NCBI GenBank assembly: GCA_964652195.1
Contig: CAZZBB010000012.1
Span: 36,537-100,536 of the forward strand
DNA: 64,000 nt
Reading direction: 5' to 3'
Origin: an uncultured bacterium
GTDB lineage: Bacteria; Poribacteria; WGA-4E; WGA-3G
Part shown: one piece after another, positions 23,326-63,028 of the stretch
Position numbering within the stretch: position 1 is the stretch's first letter
Layout of the letters: each line of letters opens with the position of its first letter
The notes under the pieces: model-generated
What the model was told of the DNA's origin: nothing
What the model saw: only the letters and a program-made list of their open reading frames with translations
Database searches by the model: none
Translations under genes and position numbers: made by a program

Positions 23326-24081
23326 TTATTTTGAAACAATTGAAGTCGGGAAAGCATCGTAAGTTTTTCCGTTTATTTTTCTACCCCGTTTTGATTTTTG
23401 GACCCCACCCCATTGTTTAAAGAAGAAATGTACCTTTTCCTTTTCGCATAGATCTCGGATATCAATAACCCATTTCTCTTCCATTTTACGTGCCCCTGGA
23501 CCTGATTCTCCTCCAACAATAACCCAATTAATCTTAGTTAGATCTAAATCTGGTAAAGGACCGATAAGCGGTTCAAGTGATAAGAATTTTACTTTTGCAT
23601 TGGTTTCTCGTAGAGCCTCAATTCTATGTATGACACGACTATCTTCAACACTTACACCCATCCAGACGTTTGGGGGCCATGACAATTCCGAATTATATCT
23701 TAATAATTGTTCTGCACGTTTAGTCAAAATCTGGAATTGGTGCCAATATGCTTTTTCCATAACATAGAACACTTCTTTGATATATGATAATTCAATCTTT
23801 TCATGAAAGAGATCGCTCATAGAATTTACAAAGATCCGTCGAGGTTTTTTCCATTTTAGCGGTTGATTAAGGAGTGAACGAACTGGTTGTACTTTCTGTG
23901 TCCATTGAGGCCCGGCTTTTGTGTTTTTTGCAAAACCTTCATACGCTAATCCTTTACCAGAAAACCGTGCTGCTATGCGTTCGGCATAACAGAACCGACA
24001 TCCTTCAGAGACACGTGTGCAACCCCGTACTGGATTCCAAGTAGATTCTGTCCATTCGATGCTTGATGATATGGTAGCCAT
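23326..24081 (-). CDS. Phage Gp37/Gp68 family (DUF5131) three-Cys-motif protein
   Basis: The N-terminus WNPVRGCTRVSEGCRFCYAE carries a C-x6-C-x2-C motif. Size is 251 aa. Gene pairing matches this family. Confidence 0.65.
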   Translation of the reverse strand: MATISSSIEWTESTWNPVRGCTRVSEGCRFCYAERIAARFSGKGLAYEGFAKNTKAGPQWTQKVQPVRSLLNQPLKWKKPRRIFVNSMSDLFHEKIELSYIKEVFYVMEKAYWHQFQILTKRAEQLLRYNSELSWPPNVWMGVSVEDSRVIHRIEALRETNAKVKFLSLEPLIGPLPDLDLTKINWVIVGGESGPGARKMEEKWVIDIRDLCEKEKVHFFFKQWGGVQKSKRGRKINGKTYDAFPTSIVSK

Positions 24082-24112
24082 TTTTTATCTCCAACGAAAT
24101 TTCTAATGATTA

Positions 24113-25030
24113 TTAATTAGAATGTTGAGCTAATTCTTTTAGAAGAATGTCTTGTGCAATGTTCACTGCTGTAGGAGCCCCTTTTGGGTTACCTGCAGCA
24201 AAACATAATAGGTATAAGGGGACATTTTTTGAATTACGAAGTGGTAAGGGTTTTTCGGCAACACCACTAAATATTTCTTTTAACCTTTTCACGAAATACC
24301 GTTCAATTTCTATAAATATATCACCAGTCTTTACCCACTGATTTTGAACTTCAAACATTGGAATCTGTTGAGCAATTTTGTAGAAAACGTCATACCAAGT
24401 CTCATTACCAAAAAACAGATTCAATTTTTCTTGAATCGAAGGACGAATATCACCATTCCTTTTTAGTAATCGATTTACGGTGCCAATTGGAAATAATAAC
24501 CAAAGATCAATAGCCTTAGTTTTAGCAATAGATTGAATAGTCTTCCATTCAACCTGCATTCCAAAAGGATCAAGAAACACTAATGCTCGATGCATTCCCC
24601 ATTCTTTATTGCAAAAATCATCCAAGAATGTATTCGCATCAGATTGAAGACATTCTATATCATCTGGTAAGAAGTCTTGTTTTTGTACAAATTCATCTTT
24701 AAGTTTCTTTAATTCTGAGAAATTGTGTTCGTCTTGTTCTATAAAGAAGTATTTTTGGAATCTTGGTTTTACTTCTAACGCATTTCGAACAGATCCTTGT
24801 CGAAAATTCAGTATTTCCTGAGAAATGAGTTCAGGAAATAAAATCTCTTTTTGATCTTCATCAAGTTTTAGTTCTCTATAACCAGTTCCGGCAAAAGCAT
24901 CTACATAAGCGAATTTGAAATTTTGCTTGTTCATTATTGTTGTATAGGCACTTAAATATTTGCTTACACAATTCAACTTTTGCTCTGTCCAGCTTCCACC
25001 GAAAACCTGACCAAAGCTTTTCATCTGCAC
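24113..25030 (-). CDS. Partner protein of the Gp37/Gp68 family (TcmP-like); methyltransferase-fold-like
   Basis: Encoded 32 bp upstream on the same strand. Contains VDAFAGTG, which is like MTase motif I, and FLDPFG, which is like the DPPY motif. Identity as TIGR04474 TcmP is recalled, not computed. Confidence 0.5.
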   Translation of the reverse strand: MQMKSFGQVFGGSWTEQKLNCVSKYLSAYTTIMNKQNFKFAYVDAFAGTGYRELKLDEDQKEILFPELISQEILNFRQGSVRNALEVKPRFQKYFFIEQDEHNFSELKKLKDEFVQKQDFLPDDIECLQSDANTFLDDFCNKEWGMHRALVFLDPFGMQVEWKTIQSIAKTKAIDLWLLFPIGTVNRLLKRNGDIRPSIQEKLNLFFGNETWYDVFYKIAQQIPMFEVQNQWVKTGDIFIEIERYFVKRLKEIFSGVAEKPLPLRNSKNVPLYLLCFAAGNPKGAPTAVNIAQDILLKELAQHSN

Positions 25031-25306: not shown

Positions 25307-25606
25307 GAAGATACATGAAGTAGTATTATTTTTCTAAATTGATGCCATTAGATATAACATTACTGATAGTGGTGGCAAAAAGCACACGCTTGTAATTGGT
25401 CGCAGTATATATGCAAGGGTTAATGGTAAATGGAAGTATCAGACAGGTTAGTGGTTAGAAGCTAAAAAAATTAAAAAATGGTTTGACAAGCATAGCAGCA
25501 ATTAACTACACTATATTAGGTTTTGATACAATTACGGAGCAAAATAAGCGTAGGTTCAGCAAGAACCTACGCTTATTATAGTGCTTTGCAAAACCAGAGG
25601 TTTCAC

Positions 25607-26107
25607 ATGAAATATCAATTGGTAATCCAAGACCTTAGTATACCGGTGCCAGGTGTACCTTCGTGGAGTATACCCTTATGTTCTAACCATAACGTTTACT
25701 TTGGTTGCTTAGGGCATATAGCCGAGGAGGATATAAAAACAAACCGTATAGATAGCCAATTTTATAATGGAGAAGATACAGCTATCGTCTTAGATATTGA
25801 TATAGATGCCAAAGTCGTGAGACACACCTGTTTGGCCCGTAAAAAAGAGACGACTGTGCAGTCAACAGTGGCGTTGGGTATAGGTGATGATATAGTGGAT
25901 GCGGGGGCTAAATTCACAGTAGGTCAGACGACGTATATAGCGATAACCGAGAGTGTAAAAGAGACGGTTAATACCCCTGTGGTTTCGCTAAGAGATAGTG
26001 TATATGCCGGCGTAGATTTTGATCGTCGTGCGCTATGCTCTGCCCACGCGGATTTTGATTTTGAGGGCAATGATTTTGACGAAGGTTCGGTCTGGTATCA
26101 GCCTTGA
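25607..26107 (+). CDS. Hypothetical protein
   Basis: An internal ATG at 25607 follows an AGAGG RBS; the ORF track starts at 25523, but a strong hairpin at 25544-25575 falls inside that longer ORF. No recognisable domain. It is the first gene of the GC-richer island. Confidence 0.4.
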   Translation: MKYQLVIQDLSIPVPGVPSWSIPLCSNHNVYFGCLGHIAEEDIKTNRIDSQFYNGEDTAIVLDIDIDAKVVRHTCLARKKETTVQSTVALGIGDDIVDAGAKFTVGQTTYIAITESVKETVNTPVVSLRDSVYAGVDFDRRALCSAHADFDFEGNDFDEGSVWYQP

Positions 26108-26172
26108 ATAACTTTTAGATGCGACTTGGCACCCCGGTTTATACTGTCGGGGTACCCTAAAGTAGAATTCCC

Positions 26173-27792
26173 ATGAGAATAAAACATGCTTTTACAATAC
26201 TTTTTGTTATCCTCTTTGGCATTAGTGTTTTTATCTTTTTACGAAGTTCTAATGTCCTTCCCAATGGTGATAAACTTGTCTTTCTCAATGGTGATAAACT
26301 GAAACCGAGAACTCCGGATGGTCCTGTCTCCACGTTAGAAAAAGCGGCGCGTGTGGCGTTGCATCCACTCGCAGCAGATTGGAAAACAGTTGAAGCAGCA
26401 ATGAAGCAGCGTGTTTTATCTTGGGAGGATTGGGCTCGGAAAACAGTTGAAATCGGGTGTGCGATGGACGTGCTGTATGGACATATAAACACCCCTGAAG
26501 AGGTTGCAGCGGCACGCGAAAAACAGTTAGCGATACAACTGAAATGGGCTGCCGACTGTGAATCTAGAGGGTCTATTCTTCCTAACTATCCTTTTGAGAT
26601 TCCGAAGGTTTCCCCTAAGAAGCGGTTTGACTACGAAGGACCTCAGACGAGCGAAGCACTGCTGGCAGCGTTTGATCGGAAGTGGATGGAACGTTATCCG
26701 CAATCGGTGGATTGGGACGCACATTATCCCAAAGCCGCCTGGATTGACCGAATTGTGAGTCTGGGCGGTGAAGTCCAAAGTTACGGCGATTATAGTTTTT
26801 ACCTTAAATTGCGCAGAGACCTTATCAAACACAAAGAGTCCCCGCACAAATGGCATAGTGGGGCGTTCGGTATCCCTCCAACAACGAACTTTGAGGAATA
26901 CGAAACAGGCTATATCAATAGAAAGATTTGGGAAAATGATATACGCAAAGAGGTTCGCTCTAACTACCCTGACGAGCCCAAGATTACAACCTATTTCCCC
27001 AGTGATCAACCTGATAAATACCTTCCTGTAGTAGGTAACATGACGTATGTCTACAGAAAGCCGAATAGCAGTGCAGTGAGAACCTATGGTAAATTGCTGA
27101 CTGATGAAGAGGTAAAGGACCTGAGAAATAAAGGCATAGAACCGAAGGATGTTGAAATTGTCTACATTGATGACGAATACAATGTCCTTACCGAAAAACC
27201 GAAACCCTATAACCATCAAGAGTGGTTAGAAAAAAACTCTTATGACATTGTCCCCGAAGGACTCCGTGCGCCGGATGGCACCATCGTGTCCCCTGAGCGT
27301 TATCAGGAAATAAGAGGTCAAGAGATGCCTTATGAGACGCGGCAAAGGTATGATGAATATATCGGTGATTCCCCTGCTGCTGTGGATCCTGCTGCTGCTG
27401 AGGCGGAACGCCGAGCCGTATTAACCCGCGAAGCTGCCCGTGCGGAATTTGAACGATTTAAAGAGGATATGCGCCAAATAGAAAAGTTTCAGTCTATGGC
27501 AGCAAACGAGGTATCCCGTAAGTTTGCGTTGGAGTTTCTGTCTCAATACACGCCGAAGTCCGCCACGGATAAACGGCTCCAAACGGCACTGCAAACGATG
27601 TTTCAACGTGGGTTTGATGACGGGCTGCACAGCCTGCGAAAAGACGACCCTGCCCTGGCAGCAGAGTTAGAACGGCAGCTTGCCGAAACATACAGACCAC
27701 CACAACCGCAGTTGCGACGACTAAAGACCGTGCCCCAAAAGACCGTGCCCCCTAATCCAGCGGAGACACCTCCCGCAGGGGATACGGACTAA
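26173..27792 (+). CDS. Hypothetical 539-aa protein with N-terminal membrane anchor
   Basis: Long ORF with about 50% GC and a hydrophobic N-terminus (AFTILFVILFGISVFIFL). The antisense strand also carries long ORFs, as expected for GC-rich DNA. No motif recognised. Confidence 0.5.
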   Translation: MRIKHAFTILFVILFGISVFIFLRSSNVLPNGDKLVFLNGDKLKPRTPDGPVSTLEKAARVALHPLAADWKTVEAAMKQRVLSWEDWARKTVEIGCAMDVLYGHINTPEEVAAAREKQLAIQLKWAADCESRGSILPNYPFEIPKVSPKKRFDYEGPQTSEALLAAFDRKWMERYPQSVDWDAHYPKAAWIDRIVSLGGEVQSYGDYSFYLKLRRDLIKHKESPHKWHSGAFGIPPTTNFEEYETGYINRKIWENDIRKEVRSNYPDEPKITTYFPSDQPDKYLPVVGNMTYVYRKPNSSAVRTYGKLLTDEEVKDLRNKGIEPKDVEIVYIDDEYNVLTEKPKPYNHQEWLEKNSYDIVPEGLRAPDGTIVSPERYQEIRGQEMPYETRQRYDEYIGDSPAAVDPAAAEAERRAVLTREAARAEFERFKEDMRQIEKFQSMAANEVSRKFALEFLSQYTPKSATDKRLQTALQTMFQRGFDDGLHSLRKDDPALAAELERQLAETYRPPQPQLRRLKTVPQKTVPPNPAETPPAGDTD

Positions 27793-27982
27793 ATGAAGCA
27801 TCTGATACATTGGAGCAGCCTCGTGCTGCTCCTTATCGGGGTGCGGACTACTTCTATAGCCGGACCACTACAGACGTAGCTTCTCTGTGAGTACGTCACT
27901 GGGATGAGATAGACGTGGCGGCTATCCAAAGAGACTATCAACCTTAGAGACAGAAGAACAGATATCAGAGTATCTGCTGTGG

Positions 27983-28845
27983 GTGCTTCTCTTTGTACCG
28001 ACACTTTACCTCTTTTCACCGCCCTATCGTAGTGGCGGGGGATGGACAACCCATGCCACCGCTTTTTTACTCGCCTCCCCTATCGTCATGCTACTGCTAC
28101 GCACCGGACGGTATTTTCTGACACGCACACAGCACCCCTTTGCAAAGGTTGTCACAGAAAAGATGTCCGCACGCGGTATCTCACTGGTTCTCTGTGCCAT
28201 ATGCATCCTCAGCGGAATTGCTTATATCGTGCTTGTGCGGGATACATTTTGCACAGGATACACCAATATCAAGAACACGTATCTAACGCGACGACAGAAC
28301 AAAAACCATTAGATTTTCTAAAAACATACAACGTGACACACATACTTCTCAGTGAAGAAGATGTGCTGAACATCGCTTCTCTGCACACGGATGAACAAGA
28401 CGAATACCTAACTTCTATGGTGAGACTACTGCCACGCTCTTATACCGGCAGTACACATGCCAGATTGATACCGGCACACAAAAAAACGTTGCTCAGTTTT
28501 GTGGAGATCGATTTCTATCACAAACCAACTACCGCCACAGCAAAACTAAAAAACGGTAAAACAGTAAATATCGGATACGTCAAGTCCGATAGCACAGCAG
28601 AGAAAAAAAATGAAAAATACGGGGGAATGCTACATCTATTCGATCCAAAAACACACCAAGAAGCCATATACTACCTATCCCCGCAGATTTGGAATAGTTT
28701 CGCTATCAAACTATTTTTCCGAAACCAATATAGCAAAGCGTTTGTGCCCGTATATCCACAACAAACAGGAAACGCAAAAGTCAAAATATGGGAGATACAG
28801 TATCCGACAGATATAAATGAAAATCTGAAATATCTCGAAAGGTAA
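27983..28845 (+). pseudogene. Probable frameshifted gene (hypothetical membrane protein)
   Basis: ORF 27983-28312 reads as a membrane N-terminus. ORF 28042-28845 is protein-like only after about 28300 (KPLDFLKTYNVTHILLSEEDV...). Its first 80 codons are His/Arg/Cys-rich out-of-frame noise. A +1/-1 shift near 28290-28315 would join the two halves. Confidence 0.35.
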
Positions 28846-29358
28846 ATGAAAATGATACGCATCTTGAAACAATGCTGCATATATGGCGGGATCCTTTTCT
28901 TTGGACTTGTCATTACAAATGCGACACTACAACGATTGGTAAAACCAACACCGATAAAAGTGTACGTGATACCGAAAACAGAAAAGAAAGAATATATAAA
29001 AAGAAATACAAAACTCTATGAACACCTAAAACCGAAACCGATTGACCGGCAGAAAGTATTTGATAACACAATCATTGAGAATAACATCTTCGCACCCCTC
29101 GGATACAAACCGCCCAAAAAAACACACACTTATAGACTCGTCGGAACACAGATACCAATCGGGAGAGAAACAGAGGCAATAGCGATATTACAAGAGACCA
29201 CCGGCGAGAAAAATATGCTGAGCGTTTCCATCGGAACAAAAATAGCACAGGACACAGTGGTCATGGACATAAAACCCAAGCAGATAATCATCAAAAAAGG
29301 GAATAGACGGACCCTCCTGAGGTTAGAGACATGGCTACTCCTAAATAACAGAAGGTAG
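28846..29358 (+). CDS. Hypothetical single-TM protein (weak GspC/PilP-like pattern)
   Basis: N-terminal TM (CCIYGGILFFGLVI). The C-terminal region RLVGTQIPIGRETEAIAIL...IIIKKGNRRTLL is reminiscent of GspC/PilP beta-domains. Low confidence. Confidence 0.4.
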   Translation: MKMIRILKQCCIYGGILFFGLVITNATLQRLVKPTPIKVYVIPKTEKKEYIKRNTKLYEHLKPKPIDRQKVFDNTIIENNIFAPLGYKPPKKTHTYRLVGTQIPIGRETEAIAILQETTGEKNMLSVSIGTKIAQDTVVMDIKPKQIIIKKGNRRTLLRLETWLLLNNRR

Positions 29359-29367
29359 GCACACAGC

Positions 29368-29989
29368 ATGAAAGCAAACGCAATTACGAGCACACGCATC
29401 GTTCTCACATTTATGCTCATCGCAATGTTCGGGGAAAATATATATAGATATGGCAGCCACAGCAACAATTCCACTGATCTTCATACTCGATGCCATTGAC
29501 GGATATGTCGCACGAAAGTATAAACAGGAAAACGCCTCCGGCGCCGTCTTAGACATTGCAGCAGATAGAATTATTGAAAATGTATTTTGGATTTACTTCA
29601 CCGCAAATCAGGTGATCCATTTCTGGATGCCGGTCGCAGTACTCACACGCGGATTCGTTACGGACGCAATACGCAGCTTCGCACTCAAAGACGGAAAGAT
29701 CCCTTTTGAAATGAACACAAAATATTGGACACACGCAATGACAAGCTCACGCATCTCACGCGCATGCTCAGGAACATCAAAAATGAGCGCATTCTTCGCA
29801 ATGGCAGCATTACTCGCTATCAAAAATCAGCAGATACACACCCAGCAGCTCGAGAAACTTCAGACAACAACTCTTATACTCGCAATCACCGCTGTCGCAA
29901 TCTGTATACTACGAGGGATACCTGTCATAATTGAGGGGCGACATCAAAAAAGCATTCAAACAATAATCTGGGTTATACTATTCATGTAA
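29368..29989 (+). pseudogene. CDP-alcohol phosphatidyltransferase family gene, apparently frameshifted
   Basis: From 29368 frame 1 gives MKANAITSTRIVLTFMLIAMF, a typical N-terminus, then a stop. From 29450 frame 2 carries D(x)2DG(x)2AR(x)8G(x)3D(x)3D (LDAIDGYVARK...GAVLDIAADRI). The shift falls in AAAATATATATAGATATGG. Confidence 0.5.
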
Positions 29990-30075
29990 TACCATTTCTA
30001 ATTAATTTTTGTTCCATTACCTAATGTTACTATAGTTTGGACAATTTTCGTAATTTCTTGAACAACTGTATACAT

Positions 30076-54122: not shown

Positions 54123-54740
54123 TTATAGGGCATCTCCATCTTTAAGGTAGGACTGTAAGTGTTTGCGTAGATTGCGATGGGCATGGAATAGGTGAGCCTT
54201 GACAGTTCCATCCGATCTACCAACCGCAGTAGCGATATCTTTTAGTGATAGACCATCCCAGTGGCGTAAGATGAAAATCTTACGTTGTTTCGGTGGCAGC
54301 TGACGAATCGCCTTTCGGATCTGAAGTCTAAGCTCCTTATTCTCCACTGCTTTGGCAGGTGAATCTAACCGTAGGTCTGGGAAATTCGCCATCGGTAATT
54401 CCTCGGATTCATCGGAATCATATACCATTACTTCCGAACGCGATTTTTTTCGTAAAAAATCTATACACAGGTTGACAGTGATTTTATAAAGCCAACTATA
54501 GAACTGGCATTGACTCTTGAAGTTACCCAATCCTTGGTAAGCACGGATAAATGCATCTTGTGTAATATCAAGGGCATCTTCATGATTAGGAACAAAACGC
54601 AGCACTAACCGATAAGTTCGTTTTTGATAGCGAGTAAATAGCGTATCAAATACTGCGGTATCACCACTTTGAAATTGTTCTATCAGTTGAGCATCATCAT
54701 TACAACTTGGAGGAATACTTTCGGGGCTTGGGGACTGCAT
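54123..54740 (-). CDS. ECF-type RNA polymerase sigma-70 factor
   Basis: Region 2 is DITQDAFIRAYQ...FYSWLYKITVN. Region 4 has an HTH (LSLKDIATAVGRSDGTVK). Confidence 0.8.
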   Translation of the reverse strand: MQSPSPESIPPSCNDDAQLIEQFQSGDTAVFDTLFTRYQKRTYRLVLRFVPNHEDALDITQDAFIRAYQGLGNFKSQCQFYSWLYKITVNLCIDFLRKKSRSEVMVYDSDESEELPMANFPDLRLDSPAKAVENKELRLQIRKAIRQLPPKQRKIFILRHWDGLSLKDIATAVGRSDGTVKAHLFHAHRNLRKHLQSYLKDGDAL

Positions 54741-54800: not shown

Positions 54801-55679
54801 TCACCGATCTGTCTGTTTTTGTACACAATGAAACCATTCTCTGTATCTGCGGCTATCTTTAACCATCTGTTGAAGCAGGGATAATTCCTCATCTTCTTCG
54901 GCACAAGGTGCATCAGCCAGCAATGCTAACAACTCCTCATACACGATCTTATCTTCATCTACCAATGCTGAAAGAAGACTATCAAAGTTCTCTCCCATTC
55001 CGAGTAGTGAAAATAATTGATTCGTGTGCCGTAATTCTTCTGAGGCAGCCTGGTTTAGGTACGCAGCAAGTTCATGTTCATTTCGTTTCTCTGCGATTCG
55101 AGCGAGAATTAACCGCATTCCGACGAGTTTGAGTTTGGCTTGCGCAAGTTCGTCAAGTCCCGTCTCAAATTTCTCACGTAAATGATCAGCATCACGCGGG
55201 TGCAACTGGGAATAACTCGGCCAAACGGGTTTCGCCATCACCTGTTTCAATCTCTTTAGACTTTCTATAAGGTTATCTTGTTCTTCTGGGGACAATTGAC
55301 CAAAAGTGTGTTCCCAAAAGTCTTCTGCCTGTTTTACACCTTCACTAAAAAGTTCTTGAGATTGTGGTGTTAGTTGAATGCGAGCTCTTCTTCTATCTTC
55401 ATCACACTTACGACGGACAACCCAACCTTGACGTTCTAATCTGTTGACTAAACCAGAAACTGTATTGTGAGCAAGACCGAGATGTTCACCCAATTCACTT
55501 ACATACATGCCGGATTCACGACCATACCAATGTAAGTGTTGTAAGGCGTTAAATTGGACAATTGTTAGGCGATTCGGAACTAAATCCTGAATAAACCGGG
55601 ATTTGGTTGATGCTTGGGCATGTCGCATCACACGCATAACAACATCAATTTCTTGGTTGAATTCACGGTTTTTAGACAT
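54801..55679 (-). CDS. MarR-family HTH regulator fused to a C-terminal helical, possibly ferritin-like domain
   Basis: MarR wHTH (LTIVQFNALQHL...VSELGEHLGLAHNTVSGLVNRLERQGWV). The approximately 150-aa C-terminus carries E..H pairs (NEHE, EELRH). It lies immediately upstream of the ECF sigma factor. Confidence 0.55.
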   Translation of the reverse strand: MSKNREFNQEIDVVMRVMRHAQASTKSRFIQDLVPNRLTIVQFNALQHLHWYGRESGMYVSELGEHLGLAHNTVSGLVNRLERQGWVVRRKCDEDRRRARIQLTPQSQELFSEGVKQAEDFWEHTFGQLSPEEQDNLIESLKRLKQVMAKPVWPSYSQLHPRDADHLREKFETGLDELAQAKLKLVGMRLILARIAEKRNEHELAAYLNQAASEELRHTNQLFSLLGMGENFDSLLSALVDEDKIVYEELLALLADAPCAEEDEELSLLQQMVKDSRRYREWFHCVQKQTDR

Positions 55680-59061: not shown

Positions 59062-59206
59062 AGATTAATCCCCAATTTCTCTTACAATACTATACCTGAT
59101 TCTGTGTATTGAGTCAAATAAATAGGAAAATTACAGCTGTAAACATCTTATCAATTCAGGGCTTACGCAATACCTCTTAAAGTCCCCTGATATTGTCCAA
59201 ATCGGC

Positions 59207-59229
59207 AGCACCAGCAGTGCGGAATGTGG
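59207..59229. repeat. Inverted, degenerate copy (19 of 23) of the 23-bp ACACCTTTCGCACCGCTGGTGCT repeat
   Basis: AGCACCAGCAGTGCGGAATGTGG is the reverse-complement orientation. It lies in the 1.1-kb AT-rich non-coding region. Confidence 0.4.
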
Positions 59230-60044
59230 ATAGAAAACTTAAATACAAAAATGAATAAAAATGAAGAATATCTTAATCAATAACAACTAATATATCACAA
59301 TAACACAAAATAAATTAAAAACACTTGTCAAAATAGAAATAAAATTGTAGAATACTGTATTGTTCACCTTTTATATACGAATACTAATTTATTACAATAG
59401 AGTTACGAGAATTTATATATTTAGAAATTAGTGTTCTTTAAGAATAACCCAATACAACACAACTATATAATATCATTTCTATTTGAATAGTTCACATTAT
59501 AGAAAATAAAGAAAATATCTATAGCTAACAACTAAAAACATAGAATGGATTCAAGAAATTTAGATGATGCATTTCACATATTCATATCAAAAATTAGGAG
59601 AAAAAATGATGACTACCTATAAAAACGATCCTAAATACAAAAGTTTAATTACGTCAAAAAAACGACATTATTTGATGGTTGGAAATGTCAAAATCAGCAA
59701 CAACAATAAAAACACAAAATCACACATTTTAGAAATTCTTATAAATGCAATTCAAAGTGGAGTAAAGTCAGTCTATGACAGGGTTTGCAGGGGTAATTTA
59801 CACCAATTTCAATGTCACACGATGTGACAAAAAGTGTAACTTTTTCCTTGTTTCGACACATAGAGGAAAACACCATGAACACGATATTACCATCAGAGAA
59901 TTTAGGATTAAAAGCCTGTTTTTGCACCCTATTATTTGTCTCTATATTAGGATTAAATCGCTGTTTTTTGCCTTTTTAACTGACAGAAATATCATCTTGT
60001 GTAAGGATGTAATACCATTTCTATATGATAATATAACATTATTT

Positions 60045-60117
60045 CGTAGGTCGGGTAGAAGCGATAGCAAAACCCGACTTTTTATTCTATCATCTCGGGT
60101 TTCGTGCCTCAACCCGA
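60045..60117 (+). terminator. Nested inverted repeats with a terminator-like hairpin (GTCGGGT...ACCCGAC + TTTTTATT) and an alternative outer 11-bp pairing
   Basis: GTAGGTCGGGT at 60045-55 pairs either with ACCCGAC at 60073-79 (followed by the T-run) or with ACCCGACCTAC at 60107-17. A CGGGTT...AACCCG hairpin lies in between. Confidence 0.35.
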
Positions 60118-60161
60118 CCTACAATATGTTATGACAATTTGTCAATTAGAAATGGTATAAT

Positions 60162-61406
60162 CTATTCTTTTCGCACAATTGAATTCAGAATTGGTAAAAG
60201 TGCACCTATAGTCGGAACATCACGGAATGTAAACCCATAGTGTGAGAAATAGCTTGATGTCTCTAATGCCTCTGCAATCGTAGCGTTTTTCTCTAATTCC
60301 TTGGATACTCCAATGATGAGCGGTATATCCGTCTTATTCGGTAGTGAATTCACCCGAGTAAGCAGATGTCCTTGATGCCATGGGTGGAATAATTCAATTG
60401 CAACTTCTACACCACTACTGTGGGTTAGTTGATAATCTGGGAAACAGTAGCTATCCCCAGGTAGAGGGAAGAATTGACTACCAGGTTGGATCTGCCACTT
60501 ATCAGTCTTGTTTTGAAGCATTTGCTGAAAGTGCTGAATATCTTCAGGGATATATGCAAGGAACTGTTGTGAAATTGGTTTAATTCCGCAGGAGTCATCA
60601 ATAGACAACTGAGAGGTACGTTTGTTTCTAAACTGAATTTCGGCAGTAAGTTCCCACTTCTGTTGATGTAGAACAGCGACAAAGAAGTTTGCCAAATTCA
60701 TACCGTACCGTTTTGTCTTATAGAATAAGTTCAGAGGACCATCCACAGTAATCTGGAAGATATCTCCTGTATCGGTTTTTTCTTTTCGAATGCTGGATAA
60801 AAGTTGGTGAAATCGAAGATACTTAAACAATTGTCGAAGTTCAGCAGTCATCGAATCTGTAAGTCTTAGTGTAAGTGAATTACAATGCAACAATAAACCT
60901 TGTACTTGGGCAGTATTATAGCGATGCAGTAGGTGTTCCGGAGAAATACTCCTAAATGACAGAATTTGTTGGCAACTCGGTAAATCTGCGTATAGATAAT
61001 CATGTAATTCTGTTTCTGGTAATTCCGAGTCGGCACCCATTAACGCAAGAACTTTTTGGTGGTATTCTGTATAGTCCTGAAATTGTTCTTGTGAGAGAAT
61101 ACGGCTTGTTTCTGTGAAAAGCCTGTTCCGAAAGGCAATCAGTTCTTCATTTGGTGCTGTATCGAATTCTGTACGATCTAACAGCAACTTTTCGAGTCCT
61201 CGTAAAATTATAGGGGACTCAGATGTACCATCAATTATCGTTTTACTATTATCTAATAGTGTTGATCTTTTATCGTCAGTAGCAGCTTCGAATATCGTGA
61301 TTAATTGTTCTGCGACCTTCAGCAATTTGGAATTCGTGGGATCAACAAATTGAGGGTATATTTGTCCCTTTTGTATCTTGTATCGGAGTAAGTCTTTAGT
61401 AAGCAT
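60162..61406 (-). CDS. DUF790 family protein (Bax1-like nuclease partner of XPB)
   Basis: 414 aa, encoded immediately downstream of the XPB-like helicase on the same strand. The DUF790/Bax1 assignment rests on this pairing and on size; it is recall-based. Confidence 0.5.
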   Translation of the reverse strand: MLTKDLLRYKIQKGQIYPQFVDPTNSKLLKVAEQLITIFEAATDDKRSTLLDNSKTIIDGTSESPIILRGLEKLLLDRTEFDTAPNEELIAFRNRLFTETSRILSQEQFQDYTEYHQKVLALMGADSELPETELHDYLYADLPSCQQILSFRSISPEHLLHRYNTAQVQGLLLHCNSLTLRLTDSMTAELRQLFKYLRFHQLLSSIRKEKTDTGDIFQITVDGPLNLFYKTKRYGMNLANFFVAVLHQQKWELTAEIQFRNKRTSQLSIDDSCGIKPISQQFLAYIPEDIQHFQQMLQNKTDKWQIQPGSQFFPLPGDSYCFPDYQLTHSSGVEVAIELFHPWHQGHLLTRVNSLPNKTDIPLIIGVSKELEKNATIAEALETSSYFSHYGFTFRDVPTIGALLPILNSIVRKE

Positions 61407-61421
61407 ACTTAGTTGATAAAG

Positions 61422-62837
61422 CTATTTTCTTTGATACGCGTTATGTTGTCGACGACGTTTATTGACAGAATGTTCACCGGTTTGTTTTGATATGAGTTCG
61501 TAAAGAACAGCTTGTTTACCTTCTTTTTTCCGTAGGATACGTCCTAAACGCTGCACATGTTCTCTGACACTCCCACTTCCAGAAACGATAATTGCAACAT
61601 TCGCTTCTGGGACATCAACCCCTTCATTCAACGCTTTTGAAGTGACTAAGATAGAATAGCTTCCATCACGGAATCCATTTAAAAAGGATGCTCGTTCTTT
61701 CTGTTTTGTCTGATGTGTTAGGACAGGTAAAAAGAATCGAGTCCCAATGTCGTAAGCAGTATCGTTATCTTGTGTAAAGATGATAATCCTATCTCCACGA
61801 TGTCTCTGAATTAGTTTCCACACCCATTCCTGTTTTGCTTTTGATGCAAAACTAAGTTGTTTTTGTGTTAGATACGCTTTGAATGCAGCACGTCCTTCAT
61901 CAGATTGAGAGGATTTCCACAGAAAATTCTTCCATCCACTTGATGTTCCCATATTGATATTTGATTTCCTAAGAAAGTCTAAATATGTTTTTCGTGCATC
62001 AAGATATTGTATCCGTTCTGTGTCTTCCATATCTATAGCCATAGTCACAACACGATAAGGGGCAAGTGTGTCTCCAGATAGATCCTGTACCTTTGCTTCA
62101 TAACAACATTCACCGACAAGTTCATAGAGCCTATTCTCCTTGCCATCCACACGATCAGGTGTTGCCGATAAACCTAAACGAAAAGGCGCAATACTGCTAA
62201 TAGCTGCATACTGATACTGATCGCCTGGAAGATGATGGCATTCATCGTAGATAGCAAAACCGAACCGATTGCCGTAGTGTGGGGCATGCATTACCGCAGA
62301 TTGATATGTTGTAACAGTTAGATCACTCAATTCGTGATGTCCACCCCCATATAAGCCAACTTCTTGGCCAAAATGTTCTTTTAGTACATCATACCACTGA
62401 TGCATTAGATCTATAGTTGGGACATGGACAAGTGCAGGTCGTTGCGTATCTTCAATCAGAAGAATAGCAATGAAGGTTTTACCCGCACCTGTAGGAAGAC
62501 TAATAACTCCACGTTTGTTGTTAGCATGCCAAGCATCAATGGCTTCAGACTGGTACGGATACGGAGTTAAGGATTTCTGACTTTGGAATGTCTGGACAGT
62601 GAATTGACGGGCAGAATCATTATATGGGAAGTTATGAGCACGAAGATGGGTAACTATATGACGATAACGGTATGCAGGGGCACGGTATGTTAGAGTGCGT
62701 TCGTCCCAACGGATATCTGGTAACTGTGCATGGATTTCCTCTGGGACGTTTTGTAGGATAAGGGTGCCTTTATCAAAGTCAATTGTTATCTGTTCCATAA
62801 GGCTGTATGCAAGAATGTCGTTTATAAACTGGTTCAC
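61422..62837 (-). CDS. XPB/ERCC3/Rad25-like SF2 DNA helicase
   Basis: Walker A LPTGAGKTFIA, DECHH box, motif III GLSATPDRVDG (a variant of the RED region), and motif VI QRLGRILR. Confidence 0.75.
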   Translation of the reverse strand: MNQFINDILAYSLMEQITIDFDKGTLILQNVPEEIHAQLPDIRWDERTLTYRAPAYRYRHIVTHLRAHNFPYNDSARQFTVQTFQSQKSLTPYPYQSEAIDAWHANNKRGVISLPTGAGKTFIAILLIEDTQRPALVHVPTIDLMHQWYDVLKEHFGQEVGLYGGGHHELSDLTVTTYQSAVMHAPHYGNRFGFAIYDECHHLPGDQYQYAAISSIAPFRLGLSATPDRVDGKENRLYELVGECCYEAKVQDLSGDTLAPYRVVTMAIDMEDTERIQYLDARKTYLDFLRKSNINMGTSSGWKNFLWKSSQSDEGRAAFKAYLTQKQLSFASKAKQEWVWKLIQRHRGDRIIIFTQDNDTAYDIGTRFFLPVLTHQTKQKERASFLNGFRDGSYSILVTSKALNEGVDVPEANVAIIVSGSGSVREHVQRLGRILRKKEGKQAVLYELISKQTGEHSVNKRRRQHNAYQRK

Positions 62838-63028
62838 ATTTTATAGTATAACGTGAAATCGAAGTAAGAGAATTCAACTATTTTATCACTAAAATTAAAT
62901 TCTCAACCCTTGGTAGGTTCGTTTTGTAACCATGGGAATGCAATCCATTTTCATATCACTTGCTTTCGATGGATTAGCGTGATAAGATTATGCTATCTTG
63001 TAGAATAAATAGAATGAGGTAATAACCA

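What the first reader, a model, noticed from the sequence alone, without database searches (positions are those of the whole stretch)
60162..62837. Bacterial XPB-like helicase + DUF790 (Bax1-like) gene pair
An ERCC3/XPB-family SF2 helicase (DECHH; motif III GLSATPDRVDG) is followed 15 bp later by a DUF790 protein. In archaea the DUF790 homologue, Bax1, is the XPB-associated nuclease. The function of bacterial pairs is poorly defined and could be repair or defence.
Basis: partly seen in the sequence, partly recalled or inferred. Interest (0 to 1): 0.5.

Follow-up and report, generated by a model that had tools for sequence, protein, structure and literature searches.

The report
Bacterial XPB–Bax1 helicase–nuclease operon
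An uncultured bacterium of the phylum Poribacteria carries, as a stably inherited two-gene operon, the DNA-unwinding helicase (XPB) and DNA-cutting nuclease (Bax1) pair known from archaea; the pair is real and looks functional, but it belongs to an already catalogued family whose cellular role has not been tested in bacteria.

Summary
Two minus-strand genes 15 bp apart encode an archaeal-type XPB helicase (61422-62837; the true start is probably the ATG at 62798) and a DUF790/Bax1 nuclease (60162-61406). The helicase has the XPB damage-recognition domain, all ATPase motifs and a full-length thumb motif. It matches Archaeoglobus XPB end to end (E=3e-103, 41% identity). The nuclease scores 237 bits on PF05626. 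Its confident AlphaFold model (pLDDT 92.7) significantly matches only archaeal Bax1 structures. The acidic triad (D289, D324, E338) and the XPB-contact residues are conserved.

The organism is Candidatus Poribacteria. The pair sits among housekeeping genes at a syntenic position across the phylum and is at least as conserved as its neighbours. XPB lies directly upstream of DUF790 in 27 of 27 reference loci, in 5 of 5 other bacterial lineages examined, and in 61 of 74 metagenomic loci. No phage, viral-contig or PADLOC match exists for the nuclease.

Best reading: a helicase-nuclease complex acting on bubble or fork DNA for genome maintenance, not a mobile defence system. It is a new member of a known kind. 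The in vivo role is unproven even in archaea. Interest is modest.

The parts
61422..62837 (-). XPB-type SF2 helicase gene (ORF as listed, 471 aa from GTG 62837). The probable true CDS is 61422-62798 (458 aa from the ATG at 62798).
   Evidence: Matches A. fulgidus XPB (2fwr/6p66_A) at E=3.1e-103 over residues 19-467, with 40.9% identity.
62610..62780 (-). [quoted passage not shown]
   Evidence: Pfam PF18458 XPB_DRD, 63.7 bits against a cut-off of 26
62475..62489 (-). Walker A / motif I, GAGKT (residues 117-121)
   Evidence: The G-x-G-K-T pattern is invariant in all 36 aligned sequences (window, AfXPB and 34 orthologues).
62232..62246 (-). Motif II, DECHH (residues 198-202)
62142..62174 (-). GLSATPDRVDG: motif III (SAT, residues 224-226) followed by the XPB 'RED' motif position, which reads R229-V230-D231 here
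   Evidence: R and D are invariant in the bacterial clade and the middle residue varies. The archaeal models have RED (Af) and RDD (St).
61869..61994 (-). Thumb (ThM) motif, residues 282-323, full length. R282, W302 and Y322 align with StXPB R258, F278 (the wedge residue) and W298.
   Evidence: ungapped alignment to StXPB and AfXPB; residue roles from PMC7672443
61530..61553 (-). Motif VI, QRLGRILR (residues 429-436)
61407..61421 (-). 15-bp intergenic spacer between the helicase stop codon and the nuclease ATG. There is no terminator. In other lineages the two genes overlap by 14-65 nt.
60162..61406 (-). DUF790 / Bax1-like nuclease gene, 414 aa
   Evidence: PF05626 at 237.3 bits. The clade profile hits PDB Bax1 chains at E=1.6e-41 to 2.6e-47. 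AF2 model pLDDT 92.7; the only significant Foldseek matches are Bax1 chains, E=3e-22 to 7.5e-20.
60915..60992 (-). N-terminal-domain segment carrying YADLP (residues 139-143) and YN (163-164). These are the equivalents of AfBax1 Y131/D133 and Y155/N156 at the XPB-binding surface.
   Evidence: D141 in 136/136, N164 in 134/136, Y163 in 131/136; roles from PMC7293015
60342..60554 (-). Nuclease domain (PD-(D/E)XK / VRR-Nuc-like), residues 285-355. The acidic triad is E288/D289, D324 and E338, followed by the clade-specific ELFHPWH motif (338-344).
   Evidence: Position 289 is E in 124 and D in 5 of 136 sequences; D324 is in 136/136; E338 in 135/136; H341, W343 and H344 each in at least 133/136. 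The AfBax1 triad E275/D305/E318 is from PMC7293015.
60046..60122 (-). Long imperfect hairpin beginning 40 nt after the nuclease stop codon. It is a possible transcript 3' end or stabiliser; its function is not established.
   Evidence: MFE -49.3 kcal/mol, z=-7.5, 0 of 200 shuffles fold as well. It occurs only once in the window.
62838..63028 (.). Divergent intergenic region shared with the 2-hydroxyacid dehydrogenase gene. It presumably holds the operon promoter. No conserved operator was found.

Best explanation
The two genes form an operon encoding a bacterial version of the archaeal XPB-Bax1 helicase-nuclease machine. It is chromosomal and vertically inherited in Poribacteria.

Inferred mechanism, taken from the archaeal structures. 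The N-terminal domain of the Bax1-like protein binds the thumb/HD2 region of XPB to form a 1:1 heterodimer. XPB uses ATP to translocate 3'->5' on duplex DNA at a bubble or fork, wedging the strands apart with its thumb motif (W302). The partner holds the other strand, and its PD-(D/E)XK domain (D289/D324/E338 plus divalent metal) cuts at the ds-ss junction.

The most likely physiological role is genome maintenance: processing distorted, bubble or fork DNA such as bulky lesions, crosslinks or stalled forks. A mobile anti-phage role is less likely.

Shown here: homology, domain and motif integrity, predicted fold, operon linkage, synteny and purifying conservation. Inferred: complex formation, substrate and polarity. 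Not established anywhere: the in vivo role.
For: (1) Helicase. It gives a full-length match to solved archaeal XPB (E=3.1e-103 for Af, 2.6e-88 for St). It has the DRD domain, intact motifs I, II, III and VI, and an ungapped thumb motif with the wedge aromatic and flanking Arg/aromatic conserved.

(2) Nuclease. PF05626 scores 237 bits. The profile of 136 relatives hits only Bax1 chains in the PDB (E=1.6e-41 to 2.6e-47). The AF2 model has pLDDT 92.7, and Foldseek finds only Bax1 structures below E=0.01. The acidic triad and the YAD/YN interface residues are invariant or nearly so.

(3) Linkage. XPB is immediately upstream on the same strand in 27/27 reference-genome loci with upstream DNA, 5/5 other lineages, 61/74 metagenomic loci, and on Deinococcus and haloarchaeal plasmids. 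The gene gap runs from -65 to +343 nt, and overlaps are the rule outside Poribacteria. Identities of the two proteins co-vary (r=0.98, n=29).

(4) Housekeeping character in this lineage. The flanking genes are the same across Poribacteria (2-hydroxyacid dehydrogenase; TPR, APH and ABC-F). The rnpA-yidC-jag-mnmE cluster lies a few kb away. Mean identity over 10 shared loci is 84.5% for XPB and 77.5% for Bax1, against 68.5-78.8% for the neighbours.

(5) No sign of mobility or defence for the nuclease. There is no PADLOC family, no hit in 50,697 phage records and none in IMG/VR contigs.
Against: No experiment exists for any bacterial pair.

Even in archaea, xpb and bax1 deletions give no or only marginal damage sensitivity (PMC4471258; PMC7776575). 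In Halobacterium, UvrABC alone accounts for dark repair of UV lesions (PMC1590041). A 'repair' role is therefore an assumption carried over from biochemistry.

The middle acidic residue of the RED motif is lost (R-V-D). The first catalytic carboxylate is Asp where most relatives have Glu. The C-terminal ~40 residues do not align with the archaeal C-terminal domain.

Both proteins fall far below NCBIfam equivalog cut-offs (206.6 against 610; 94.8 against 500).

13 of 74 metagenomic loci have DUF790 without XPB within 8 kb, so the nuclease does not strictly need an adjacent XPB gene.

In Deinococcus the (distant) pair sits on plasmids near type I R-M genes.

I could not check whether these genomes also have UvrABC.
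Confidence: 0.62

Rival explanations
1. The pair is an anti-phage or anti-plasmid defence module. The XPB-like motor loads on foreign DNA and the DUF790 nuclease degrades it, as in other helicase-nuclease defence systems.
For: The helicase core resembles PbeA (PADLOC PDLC02707, 184.6 bits) and the Dnd-associated restriction enzyme model TIGR04095 (136.6 bits). Distant relatives in Deinococcus and haloarchaea are plasmid-borne and lie near type I R-M genes and a NERD-domain helicase. Archaeal knock-outs lack a repair phenotype, which leaves room for a non-repair role. The family is scattered over unrelated phyla.
Against: The PbeA match covers only the generic helicase core (profile positions 243-635 of 672), and no Pbe or Dnd partner gene is nearby. 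DUF790 matches no PADLOC model. In Poribacteria the locus is syntenic, single-copy in every locus seen, and flanked by housekeeping genes. It evolves as slowly as those genes do, which is unlike typical defence genes. Neighbourhoods in five other lineages are metabolic or housekeeping. No phage or viral copies exist. The only defence-like genes in the window (PDC-M41) lie about 35 kb away.
Confidence: 0.15
2. The pair is a structure-specific helicase-nuclease for non-lesion DNA transactions. Candidates are replication-fork reversal or restart, R-loop or transcription-bubble resolution, and flap processing. In this reading it does not perform excision repair.
For: In vitro, archaeal XPB-Bax1 prefers forks, bubbles and flaps and shows no dependence on a specific lesion (PMC7293015 and PMC7672443). 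Lesion-repair phenotypes are weak in archaea. A DUF790-RecQ-like fusion protein exists (P0141), and RecQ-type helicases act at forks. Solo DUF790 genes exist.
Against: Nothing in the locus points to replication or transcription partners. The helicase retains the damage-recognition domain. This rival overlaps the best explanation mechanistically and differs only in the physiological substrate, which sequence analysis cannot resolve.
Confidence: 0.18
3. The genes are decaying remnants of a horizontal transfer from archaea and have no current function.
For: The closest characterised relatives are archaeal. The RED motif is altered and the first carboxylate is substituted (E to D).
Against: Both reading frames are intact. 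All catalytic motifs are conserved across roughly 30 reference and roughly 80 metagenomic loci. Identity within the phylum equals or exceeds that of housekeeping neighbours. The changes seen are clade-wide and conservative, not random decay.
Confidence: 0.02

Closest known systems
Archaeoglobus fulgidus XPB-Bax1 complex (PDB 6P66; XPB alone 2FWR)
   Same: Same gene order logic: helicase plus partner nuclease. The helicase has the same length and domain order (DRD-HD1-ThM-HD2) and 40.9% identity over 440 residues. The nuclease aligns from residue 1 to about 368, with conserved YAD/YN interface residues and the D...E catalytic residues. The predicted fold matches (E=9.9e-21, TM 0.61).
   Different: The nuclease is only about 21% identical. 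Its C-terminal ~40 residues replace the roughly 70-residue archaeal C-terminal domain. The motif after the catalytic Glu is ELFHPWH where AfBax1 has EIAGFW. AfBax1 E135 corresponds to Pro143. The helicase RED motif is R-V-D. The host is a mesophilic bacterium.
Sulfurisphaera tokodaii XPB2-Bax1 and its forked-DNA complex (PDB 6P4O, 6P4W, 6P4F)
   Same: The helicase matches at E=2.6e-88. The thumb motif aligns without gaps, and R258, F278 and W298 are matched by R282, W302 and Y322. These Bax1 chains are the best structural matches to the model (E=3e-22).
   Different: The same differences as for A. fulgidus. St has RDD at the RED position. Regulation by homodimerisation through the archaeal C-terminal domain cannot be assumed here.
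RefSeq-annotated bacterial pairs 'DEAD/DEAH box helicase family protein' + 'DUF790 family protein' (e.g. Deinococcus wulumuqiensis plasmid NZ_CP049360.1)
   Same: Same two-gene architecture in bacteria, with the genes overlapping by 14 nt. This shows the kind is already catalogued.
   Different: Only 28-30% (nuclease) and 42-43% (helicase) identical to the window proteins. Those pairs are plasmid-borne and sit near R-M genes, not on a syntenic chromosomal site.
Mycobacterium tuberculosis XPB (characterised bacterial XPB helicase, PMC3353954)
   Same: A bacterial XPB-family 3'->5' helicase with demonstrated ATPase and unwinding activity.
   Different: It was studied alone; the authors state that no bacterial XPB-Bax1 complex had been identified. 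I did not compare the sequences or check its neighbourhood here.
PbeA / Dnd-associated restriction helicases (PADLOC PDLC02707; TIGR04095)
   Same: They share the XPB-like SF2 helicase core (184.6 and 136.6 bits).
   Different: The match lacks the N-terminal ~240 positions of the PbeA profile and is far below the TIGR04095 cut-off of 600. There are no Pbe or Dnd partner genes. The partner here is a Bax1 homologue.
Eukaryotic TFIIH XPB with the XPG and XPF-ERCC1 nucleases
   Same: The same helicase family and the same concept of coupling bubble opening to junction incision.
   Different: Human and yeast XPB align only over the C-terminal ~120 residues (70-86 bits). No other TFIIH subunits are present. 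Bax1 is unrelated in sequence to XPG and XPF (PMC7293015).

Membership tests
XPB/Rad25 helicase (short archaeal type) | SF2 ATPase core with motifs I (GxGKT), II (DExH), III (SAT) and VI (QRxGRxxR) | tested here: met
   GAGKT 117-121, DECHH 198-202, SAT 224-226 and QRLGRILR 429-436, conserved in all aligned orthologues
XPB/Rad25 helicase (short archaeal type) | [quoted passage not shown] | tested here: met
   Pfam PF18458, 63.7 bits against a cut-off of 26, residues 20-76
XPB/Rad25 helicase (short archaeal type) | RED motif (Arg plus two acidic residues) after motif III | tested here: inconclusive
   It reads R229-V230-D231. R and D are invariant, and the middle residue is V/T/A/G/S/R/N/E across bacterial orthologues. 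Af has RED and St has RDD.
XPB/Rad25 helicase (short archaeal type) | Thumb (ThM) insertion in HD2 with a wedge aromatic | tested here: met
   Ungapped alignment to St and Af XPB. R282, W302 and Y322 correspond to St R258, F278 and W298.
XPB/Rad25 helicase (short archaeal type) | End-to-end similarity to a solved XPB | tested here: met
   2fwr/6p66_A at E=3.1e-103, query 19-467 against chain 26-466
XPB/Rad25 helicase (short archaeal type) | NCBIfam equivalog threshold (NF045503 repair_heli_XPB) | tested here: not met
   206.6 bits against a cut-off of 610. It is a family member but not a curated equivalog.
XPB/Rad25 helicase (short archaeal type) | DNA-dependent ATPase with 3'->5' translocation | not testable with these tools
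   Requires biochemistry
Bax1 / DUF790 nuclease | PF05626 above the gathering score over the full profile | tested here: met
   237.3 bits against 28.8; protein 1-376 against profile 1-362 of 387
Bax1 / DUF790 nuclease | Bax1 fold (N-terminal helical domain, Cas2-like domain, nuclease domain) | tested here: met
   AF2 pLDDT 92.7 and pTM 0.85. Foldseek against the PDB: eight Bax1 chains at E=3e-22 to 7.5e-20, TM 0.56-0.63; the next hit is at E=0.015.
Bax1 / DUF790 nuclease | Three conserved acidic residues of the nuclease domain (AfBax1 E275, D305, E318) | tested here: met
   D324 (136/136) and E338 (135/136) align directly. The first carboxylate is at position 289 (E in 124/136, D in the window and in the other Poribacteria read), preceded by E288.
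Bax1 / DUF790 nuclease | N-terminal XPB-binding surface (AfBax1 F119, Y131, D133, E135, Y155, N156) | tested here: inconclusive
   Y139, D141, Y163 and N164 are conserved (D141 invariant). The E135 equivalent is P143, and F119 lies in a gapped region. Binding itself was not tested.
Bax1 / DUF790 nuclease | Archaeal C-terminal (dimerisation) domain | tested here: not met
   Alignments to PDB Bax1 stop at about residue 365-374. The window protein has only ~40 further residues, against ~70-130 in Af and St.
Bax1 / DUF790 nuclease | Encoded next to an XPB gene | tested here: met
   A 15-bp gap here. Also 27/27 reference loci, 5/5 other lineages and 61/74 metagenomic loci.
Bax1 / DUF790 nuclease | NCBIfam equivalog thresholds (NF053695, NF053694) | tested here: not met
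   94.8 and 87.8 bits against cut-offs of 500
Bax1 / DUF790 nuclease | Metal-dependent structure-specific endonuclease activity; heterodimer with XPB | not testable with these tools
   Requires biochemistry. A co-fold was not possible with the single-chain predictor.
Known or candidate anti-phage defence systems (PADLOC; Pbe/Dnd type) | Both components match models of one system | tested here: not met
   The helicase hits only the PbeA helicase core. DUF790 hits none of the 5027 models.
Known or candidate anti-phage defence systems (PADLOC; Pbe/Dnd type) | Partner genes of that system adjacent | tested here: not met
   The neighbours are a 2-hydroxyacid dehydrogenase, a TPR lipoprotein, an APH-family kinase, ABC-F, a MarR-domain protein, an ECF-type sigma factor and FtsY.
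Known or candidate anti-phage defence systems (PADLOC; Pbe/Dnd type) | Location in a variable island, patchy distribution, fast evolution | tested here: not met
   The position is syntenic across Poribacteria, and identity is at least that of the housekeeping neighbours. Caveats: the DNA 3' of the pair is variable, distant Deinococcus relatives are on plasmids, and genome-wide enrichment was not computed.

The most novel reading that the evidence does not exclude
The bacterial XPB-Bax1 clade, marked by the ELFHxWH nuclease motif, an R-x-D helicase motif and a short C-terminus, could be a core, vertically inherited second excision- or fork-processing pathway. It would operate in several bacterial phyla (Poribacteria, Calditrichota, SAR324, Desulfobacterota, Verrucomicrobiota, Lentisphaerota) alongside UvrABC or in place of part of it. 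If so, an 'archaeal/eukaryotic-type' bubble-opening repair machine is an ordinary part of bacterial genome maintenance, with a substrate range different from the archaeal one.
Probability: 0.2. Interest if true: 0.55.

Novelty: new member of a known kind. Interest (0 to 1): 0.3.

Why it matters
[quoted passage not shown] Archaeal knock-outs are nearly silent.

This locus is tightly linked, slowly evolving and syntenic in a whole bacterial phylum, with related pairs in at least five other phyla. That pattern argues the module is under strong selection in mesophilic bacteria and is not just a thermophile curiosity or a mobile element.

It offers alternative systems in which to ask what XPB-Bax1 really does, for example the culturable Deinococcus carriers or heterologous expression of the poribacterial pair. 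It also offers clade-specific motif changes (R-x-D; ELFHxWH; loss of the archaeal C-terminal domain) that could be mapped to substrate or regulatory differences.

In itself, the finding adds a well-documented member to an already catalogued family.

Tried and rejected
(1) SOS or other operator upstream. I aligned about 220 bp upstream of XPB from 20 poribacterial loci. Only the closest relatives align, and no conserved palindrome or LexA-like box emerged. Promoter and terminator scans were no better than shuffles.

(2) Phage or viral origin. tblastn against 50,697 phage records and a pattern scan of IMG/VR were both negative. The IMG/VR scan rested on a single degenerate pattern.

(3) Alternative helicase partner in the 13 'solo' loci. 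I tested the RecQ-like half of the fusion protein P0141 against all loci and found no hits next to DUF790. ORF inspection of L096 and L044 showed unrelated neighbours.

(4) Defence-system membership. PADLOC gave only a generic helicase-core match to PbeA and nothing for DUF790.

(5) The variable inserts 3' of the pair in other Poribacteria hold BlaR1/BlaI-like genes, a thioredoxin-TPR protein, WD40 proteins, a STAS protein and a Uma2-like gene. No recognisable defence system is among them (read from translations, not HMM-verified).

(6) A metagenome scan with the 136-sequence alignment failed because no stretch was conserved enough. I repeated it with a 13-sequence alignment.

(7) Literature queries for Poribacteria with Uvr genes, and for Bax1 with defence terms, returned nothing relevant.

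(8) I considered a co-fold of the two proteins but did not run it. The predictor takes one chain and only window-derived or database sequences, so a properly paired alignment could not be built.

(9) Host (sponge) origin of the helicase is rejected. Eukaryotic XPB matches only the C-terminal ~120 residues, whereas archaeal XPB matches end to end.
Full report
OBSERVATION

The window holds two co-oriented minus-strand ORFs: 61422..62837 (471 aa from a GTG) and 60162..61406 (414 aa from an ATG). They are separated by 15 bp and lie in the same frame. DECHH is at residues 198-202 and GLSATPDRVDG at 222-232.

Pfam assigns XPB_DRD (63.7 bits, cut-off 26), ResIII, Helicase_C and ERCC3_RAD25_C to the upstream protein. 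It assigns PF05626 DUF790 (237.3 bits, cut-off 28.8, E=3.1e-70) to the downstream one.

One correction concerns the helicase start. The close relative L004 has an in-frame TAG between the GTG and a conserved ATG. More distant Poribacteria begin at the position of M14, and orthologues in other phyla are 459-470 aa. The real start is therefore most likely the ATG at 62798, giving 458 aa. Residue numbers below use the 471-aa ORF.

THE HELICASE

It matches the solved Archaeoglobus fulgidus XPB end to end (E=3.1e-103; query 19-467 against chain 26-466; 40.9% identity). It also matches Sulfurisphaera tokodaii XPB2 (E=2.6e-88). Yeast and human XPB match only over the last ~120 residues. It is thus the short archaeal type and not a eukaryote-derived gene.

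Motifs I (GAGKT), II (DECHH), III (SAT) and VI (QRLGRILR) are intact and invariant among 34 orthologues.

The thumb motif that wedges the strands apart in the StXPB-Bax1-DNA structure (PMC7672443) aligns without gaps. St R258, F278 and W298 correspond to R282, W302 and Y322.

The XPB-specific RED motif reads R-V-D. Arg and the last Asp are invariant in the bacterial clade, but the middle residue varies freely, whereas it is acidic in both archaeal models (RED in Af, RDD in St).

Against NCBIfam the protein is best matched by the XPB equivalog model, but far below its cut-off (206.6 against 610). This explains why RefSeq calls such proteins merely 'DEAD/DEAH box helicase family protein'.

THE NUCLEASE

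Single-sequence search of the PDB finds only Bax1 chains with significant scores, aligned from residue 1 to about 370 (E=5e-14 to 8e-13).

An exhaustive search of 1.84 billion cluster representatives found 1,597 relatives at E<=0.001, of which 469 are at E<=1e-30. A profile of 136 full-length members hits the same Bax1 chains at E=1.6e-41 to 2.6e-47.

An AlphaFold2 model built on that alignment is confident (pLDDT 92.7, pTM 0.85). Foldseek against the PDB returns eight Bax1 chains (E=3e-22 to 7.5e-20, TM 0.56-0.63) and nothing else below E=0.01.

The literature defines the AfBax1 nuclease triad as E275/D305/E318, and an N-terminal XPB-contact surface as F119, Y131, D133, E135, Y155 and N156 (PMC7293015). 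In the window protein D324 and E338 align with D305 and E318, and they are present in 136/136 and 135/136 relatives. The first carboxylate is at position 289. It is Glu in 124/136 sequences and Asp in the window and in the other Poribacteria I read. It is preceded by E288.

On the contact surface, Y139, D141 (invariant), Y163 and N164 are conserved, and the E135 equivalent is Pro143.

Clade-specific features are the ELFH(x)WH motif after the catalytic Glu (the archaeal proteins have E-I/V-x-G-F-W) and a short C-terminus that does not align with the archaeal dimerisation domain.

NCBIfam Bax1 equivalog models score 94.8 and 87.8 bits against cut-offs of 500. This is family membership, not curated equivalence.

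ORGANISM AND CONTEXT

Close homologues carry the name Candidatus Poribacteria. The identical protein is on a Logan contig. There, upstream of the pair, lie a 2-hydroxyacid dehydrogenase, a sulfatase, an HNH protein and the rnpA-yidC-jag-mnmE cluster.

The rest of the window is mainly housekeeping: FtsY, ABC-F, an ECF-type sigma factor, EF-G, a class A PBP, alpha-2-macroglobulin and an aconitase-family protein.

In 28 reference genomes found with the nuclease (21 labelled Poribacteria, plus Calditrichia, a deltaproteobacterium and unnamed MAGs), XPB lies directly upstream on the same strand in all 27 loci that include upstream DNA. Within Poribacteria the dehydrogenase on one side and the TPR, APH and ABC-F genes on the other are also retained.

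Over ten loci sharing all genes, mean identity to the window is 84.5% for XPB and 77.5% for Bax1. The neighbours give 78.8%, 78.7% and 68.5%. The identities of the two proteins co-vary across 29 loci (Pearson r=0.98). This is descriptive only, because the loci are phylogenetically related.

The only variable part is the DNA between the nuclease stop codon and the TPR gene, which ranges from 0.2 to 7 kb. In other genomes it holds ordinary accessory genes. In the window it is a 1.1-kb AT-rich, ORF-poor spacer beginning with a strong hairpin (60046-60122, -49.3 kcal/mol, z=-7.5).

WIDER DISTRIBUTION

Named members of the same clade (44-54% identity) come from Calditrichota, SAR324, Candidatus Magnetomorum, 'Deltaproteobacteria TL4', Verrucomicrobiales and Victivallaceae.

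In five such lineages the XPB_DRD helicase gene abuts or overlaps the DUF790 gene, while the surrounding genes are unrelated and mostly metabolic.

In 80 metagenomic loci, 74 could be tested and 61 have XPB immediately upstream, usually with overlapping reading frames. The other 13 loci, from about three lineages, have an intact DUF790 gene and no XPB within 8 kb.

One representative (P0141, 981 aa) is a DUF790-RecQ-like fusion.

More distant relatives (24-30% identity) are on Deinococcus plasmids and haloarchaeal megaplasmids, again beside a DEAD/DEAH helicase. In Deinococcus they are near type I R-M genes.

No phage record and no IMG/VR contig encodes a relative.

HOW IT MOST LIKELY WORKS

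Shown here: two intact, co-conserved, translationally close-coupled genes whose products have every sequence and fold feature needed for an XPB ATPase and a Bax1-type metal-dependent nuclease.

Inferred from the archaeal structures and assays: the nuclease N-terminal domain docks on the helicase thumb/HD2. The helicase translocates 3'->5' on duplex DNA at a bubble or fork and pries the strands apart. The nuclease domain then incises at the ds-ss junction.

Physiological role: I favour genome maintenance over defence, with confidence about 0.6. In this phylum the pair behaves like a core gene. It has a fixed position, housekeeping neighbours and slow evolution, and the nuclease has no mobile-element or PADLOC signal.

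The defence reading (about 0.15) rests on three things. The helicase core resembles PbeA and Dnd-associated restriction helicases. The Deinococcus pairs sit in a plasmid and R-M context. Archaeal mutants lack a repair phenotype (PMC4471258; PMC7776575).

A role in fork or R-loop processing without lesion specificity (about 0.18) is mechanistically the same machine acting on a different substrate, and cannot be separated from the best explanation in silico.

In Halobacterium, which has both systems, UvrABC is absolutely required for dark repair of UV lesions (PMC1590041). If Poribacteria also have UvrABC, which I could not check, XPB-Bax1 is probably not the main UV-repair route.

COMPARISON AND NOVELTY

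The pair is a member of the XPB and Bax1/DUF790 families at Pfam level, by fold and by gene linkage. It is not an equivalog by NCBI's curated thresholds, and it differs in the RED motif, the post-catalytic motif and the C-terminal domain. It is not a member of any PADLOC defence system.

Bacterial DUF790-helicase pairs are already visible in RefSeq annotation and in Pfam-based surveys of PD-(D/E)XK nucleases. In the library I could search, none has been characterised. The 2012 M. tuberculosis XPB paper states that no bacterial XPB-Bax1 complex had been identified, and a 2026 review still calls XPB function in archaea and bacteria elusive.

Verdict: real, well supported, and a new member of a known kind. 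Interest is modest (0.3). The most novel reading not excluded is a core archaeal-type excision or fork-processing pathway in several bacterial phyla. I give it about 0.2 probability and about 0.55 interest if true.

LIMITS

There is no experimental evidence. No co-fold of the two proteins was run. Whether the pair is core was judged from the loci retrieved, not from a complete presence/absence census. Defence-island enrichment was not computed genome-wide. The viral-contig scan relied on one degenerate pattern. Annotation of the variable inserts was read from translations only.

Noticed in passing
window 23326-25030 (minus strand): Two adjacent ORFs match both components of the PADLOC candidate defence system PDC-M41. 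ORF 24113-25030 is PDC-M41A (367 bits, E=2e-110, no Pfam family). ORF 23326-24081 is PDC-M41B, also matching PDC-M30B (356 bits; Pfam DUF5131 at 316 bits; phrog_2045). They lie about 35 kb from the XPB-Bax1 pair.
   Followed up: partly
window ~25500-30000 (plus strand): A GC-rich block (GC 0.43-0.48 against about 0.33-0.40 elsewhere). It holds five consecutive ORFs: 25523-26107, 26173-27792, 28042-28845, 28846-29358 and 29450-29989. None has a Pfam or PADLOC family, and only one has a weak PHROG hit. It may be a horizontally acquired island next to the PDC-M41 genes.
   Followed up: partly
window 60046-60122: A long imperfect inverted repeat (GTAGGTCGGGT...ACCCGACCTAC) starts 40 nt after the DUF790 stop codon. 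As RNA it folds at -49.3 kcal/mol with z=-7.5. It occurs only once in the window. It is not followed by a T-run, so the terminator scan did not call it.
   Followed up: partly
window 59062-60161; L002 9246-14842; L014 9300-16227: The interval between the DUF790 gene and the TPR lipoprotein gene is a variable spot in Poribacteria, ranging from 0.2 to 7 kb. In the window it is an AT-rich 1.1-kb stretch without a convincing gene. Elsewhere it holds BlaR1/BlaI-like, thioredoxin-TPR, WD40, STAS and Uma2-like genes and a transposase fragment.
   Followed up: partly
window 62798-62837: The helicase ORF is probably over-extended at its 5' end. The first in-frame start (the GTG at 62837) is also the one used in a public gene call (471 aa). 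However, L004 has an in-frame stop between it and the conserved ATG at 62798.
   Followed up: yes
protein P0141 (981 aa; from the representative library, not in the window): A DUF790/Bax1-like domain (residues 1-404, 42% identical to the window protein) is fused to a RecQ-like helicase (DEAH, '[20 protein letters not shown]'). This suggests the nuclease can be coupled to helicases other than XPB. A gene-call artefact has not been excluded.
   Followed up: partly
L044, L045, L057, L068, L096-L098, L100, L101, L111, L112, L114, L116: These 13 of 74 testable metagenomic loci carry an intact DUF790 gene (with PDF...ELFHxWH conserved in the two loci read, L044 and L096) and no XPB gene within 8 kb. 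The neighbours are unrelated: glutathione peroxidase, an SDR, aconitase, RecJ and a group II intron reverse transcriptase.
   Followed up: partly
L030 1455-2773 and L031 6242-7548 (Deinococcus plasmids): On two different Deinococcus plasmids a DUF3006 gene and an 'excalibur calcium-binding domain' gene lie near the helicase-DUF790 pair. They are directly upstream in D. psychrotolerans and about 5 kb away in D. wulumuqiensis. Type I R-M genes are close by in both.
   Followed up: no
window 54801-55679 and 54123-54740 (minus strand): A 292-aa protein with an N-terminal MarR domain and a long C-terminal extension that has no Pfam family sits directly upstream of an ECF-type sigma factor gene. This is an unusual pairing where an anti-sigma factor would be expected (the sigma factor was identified from its translation only).
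   Followed up: no
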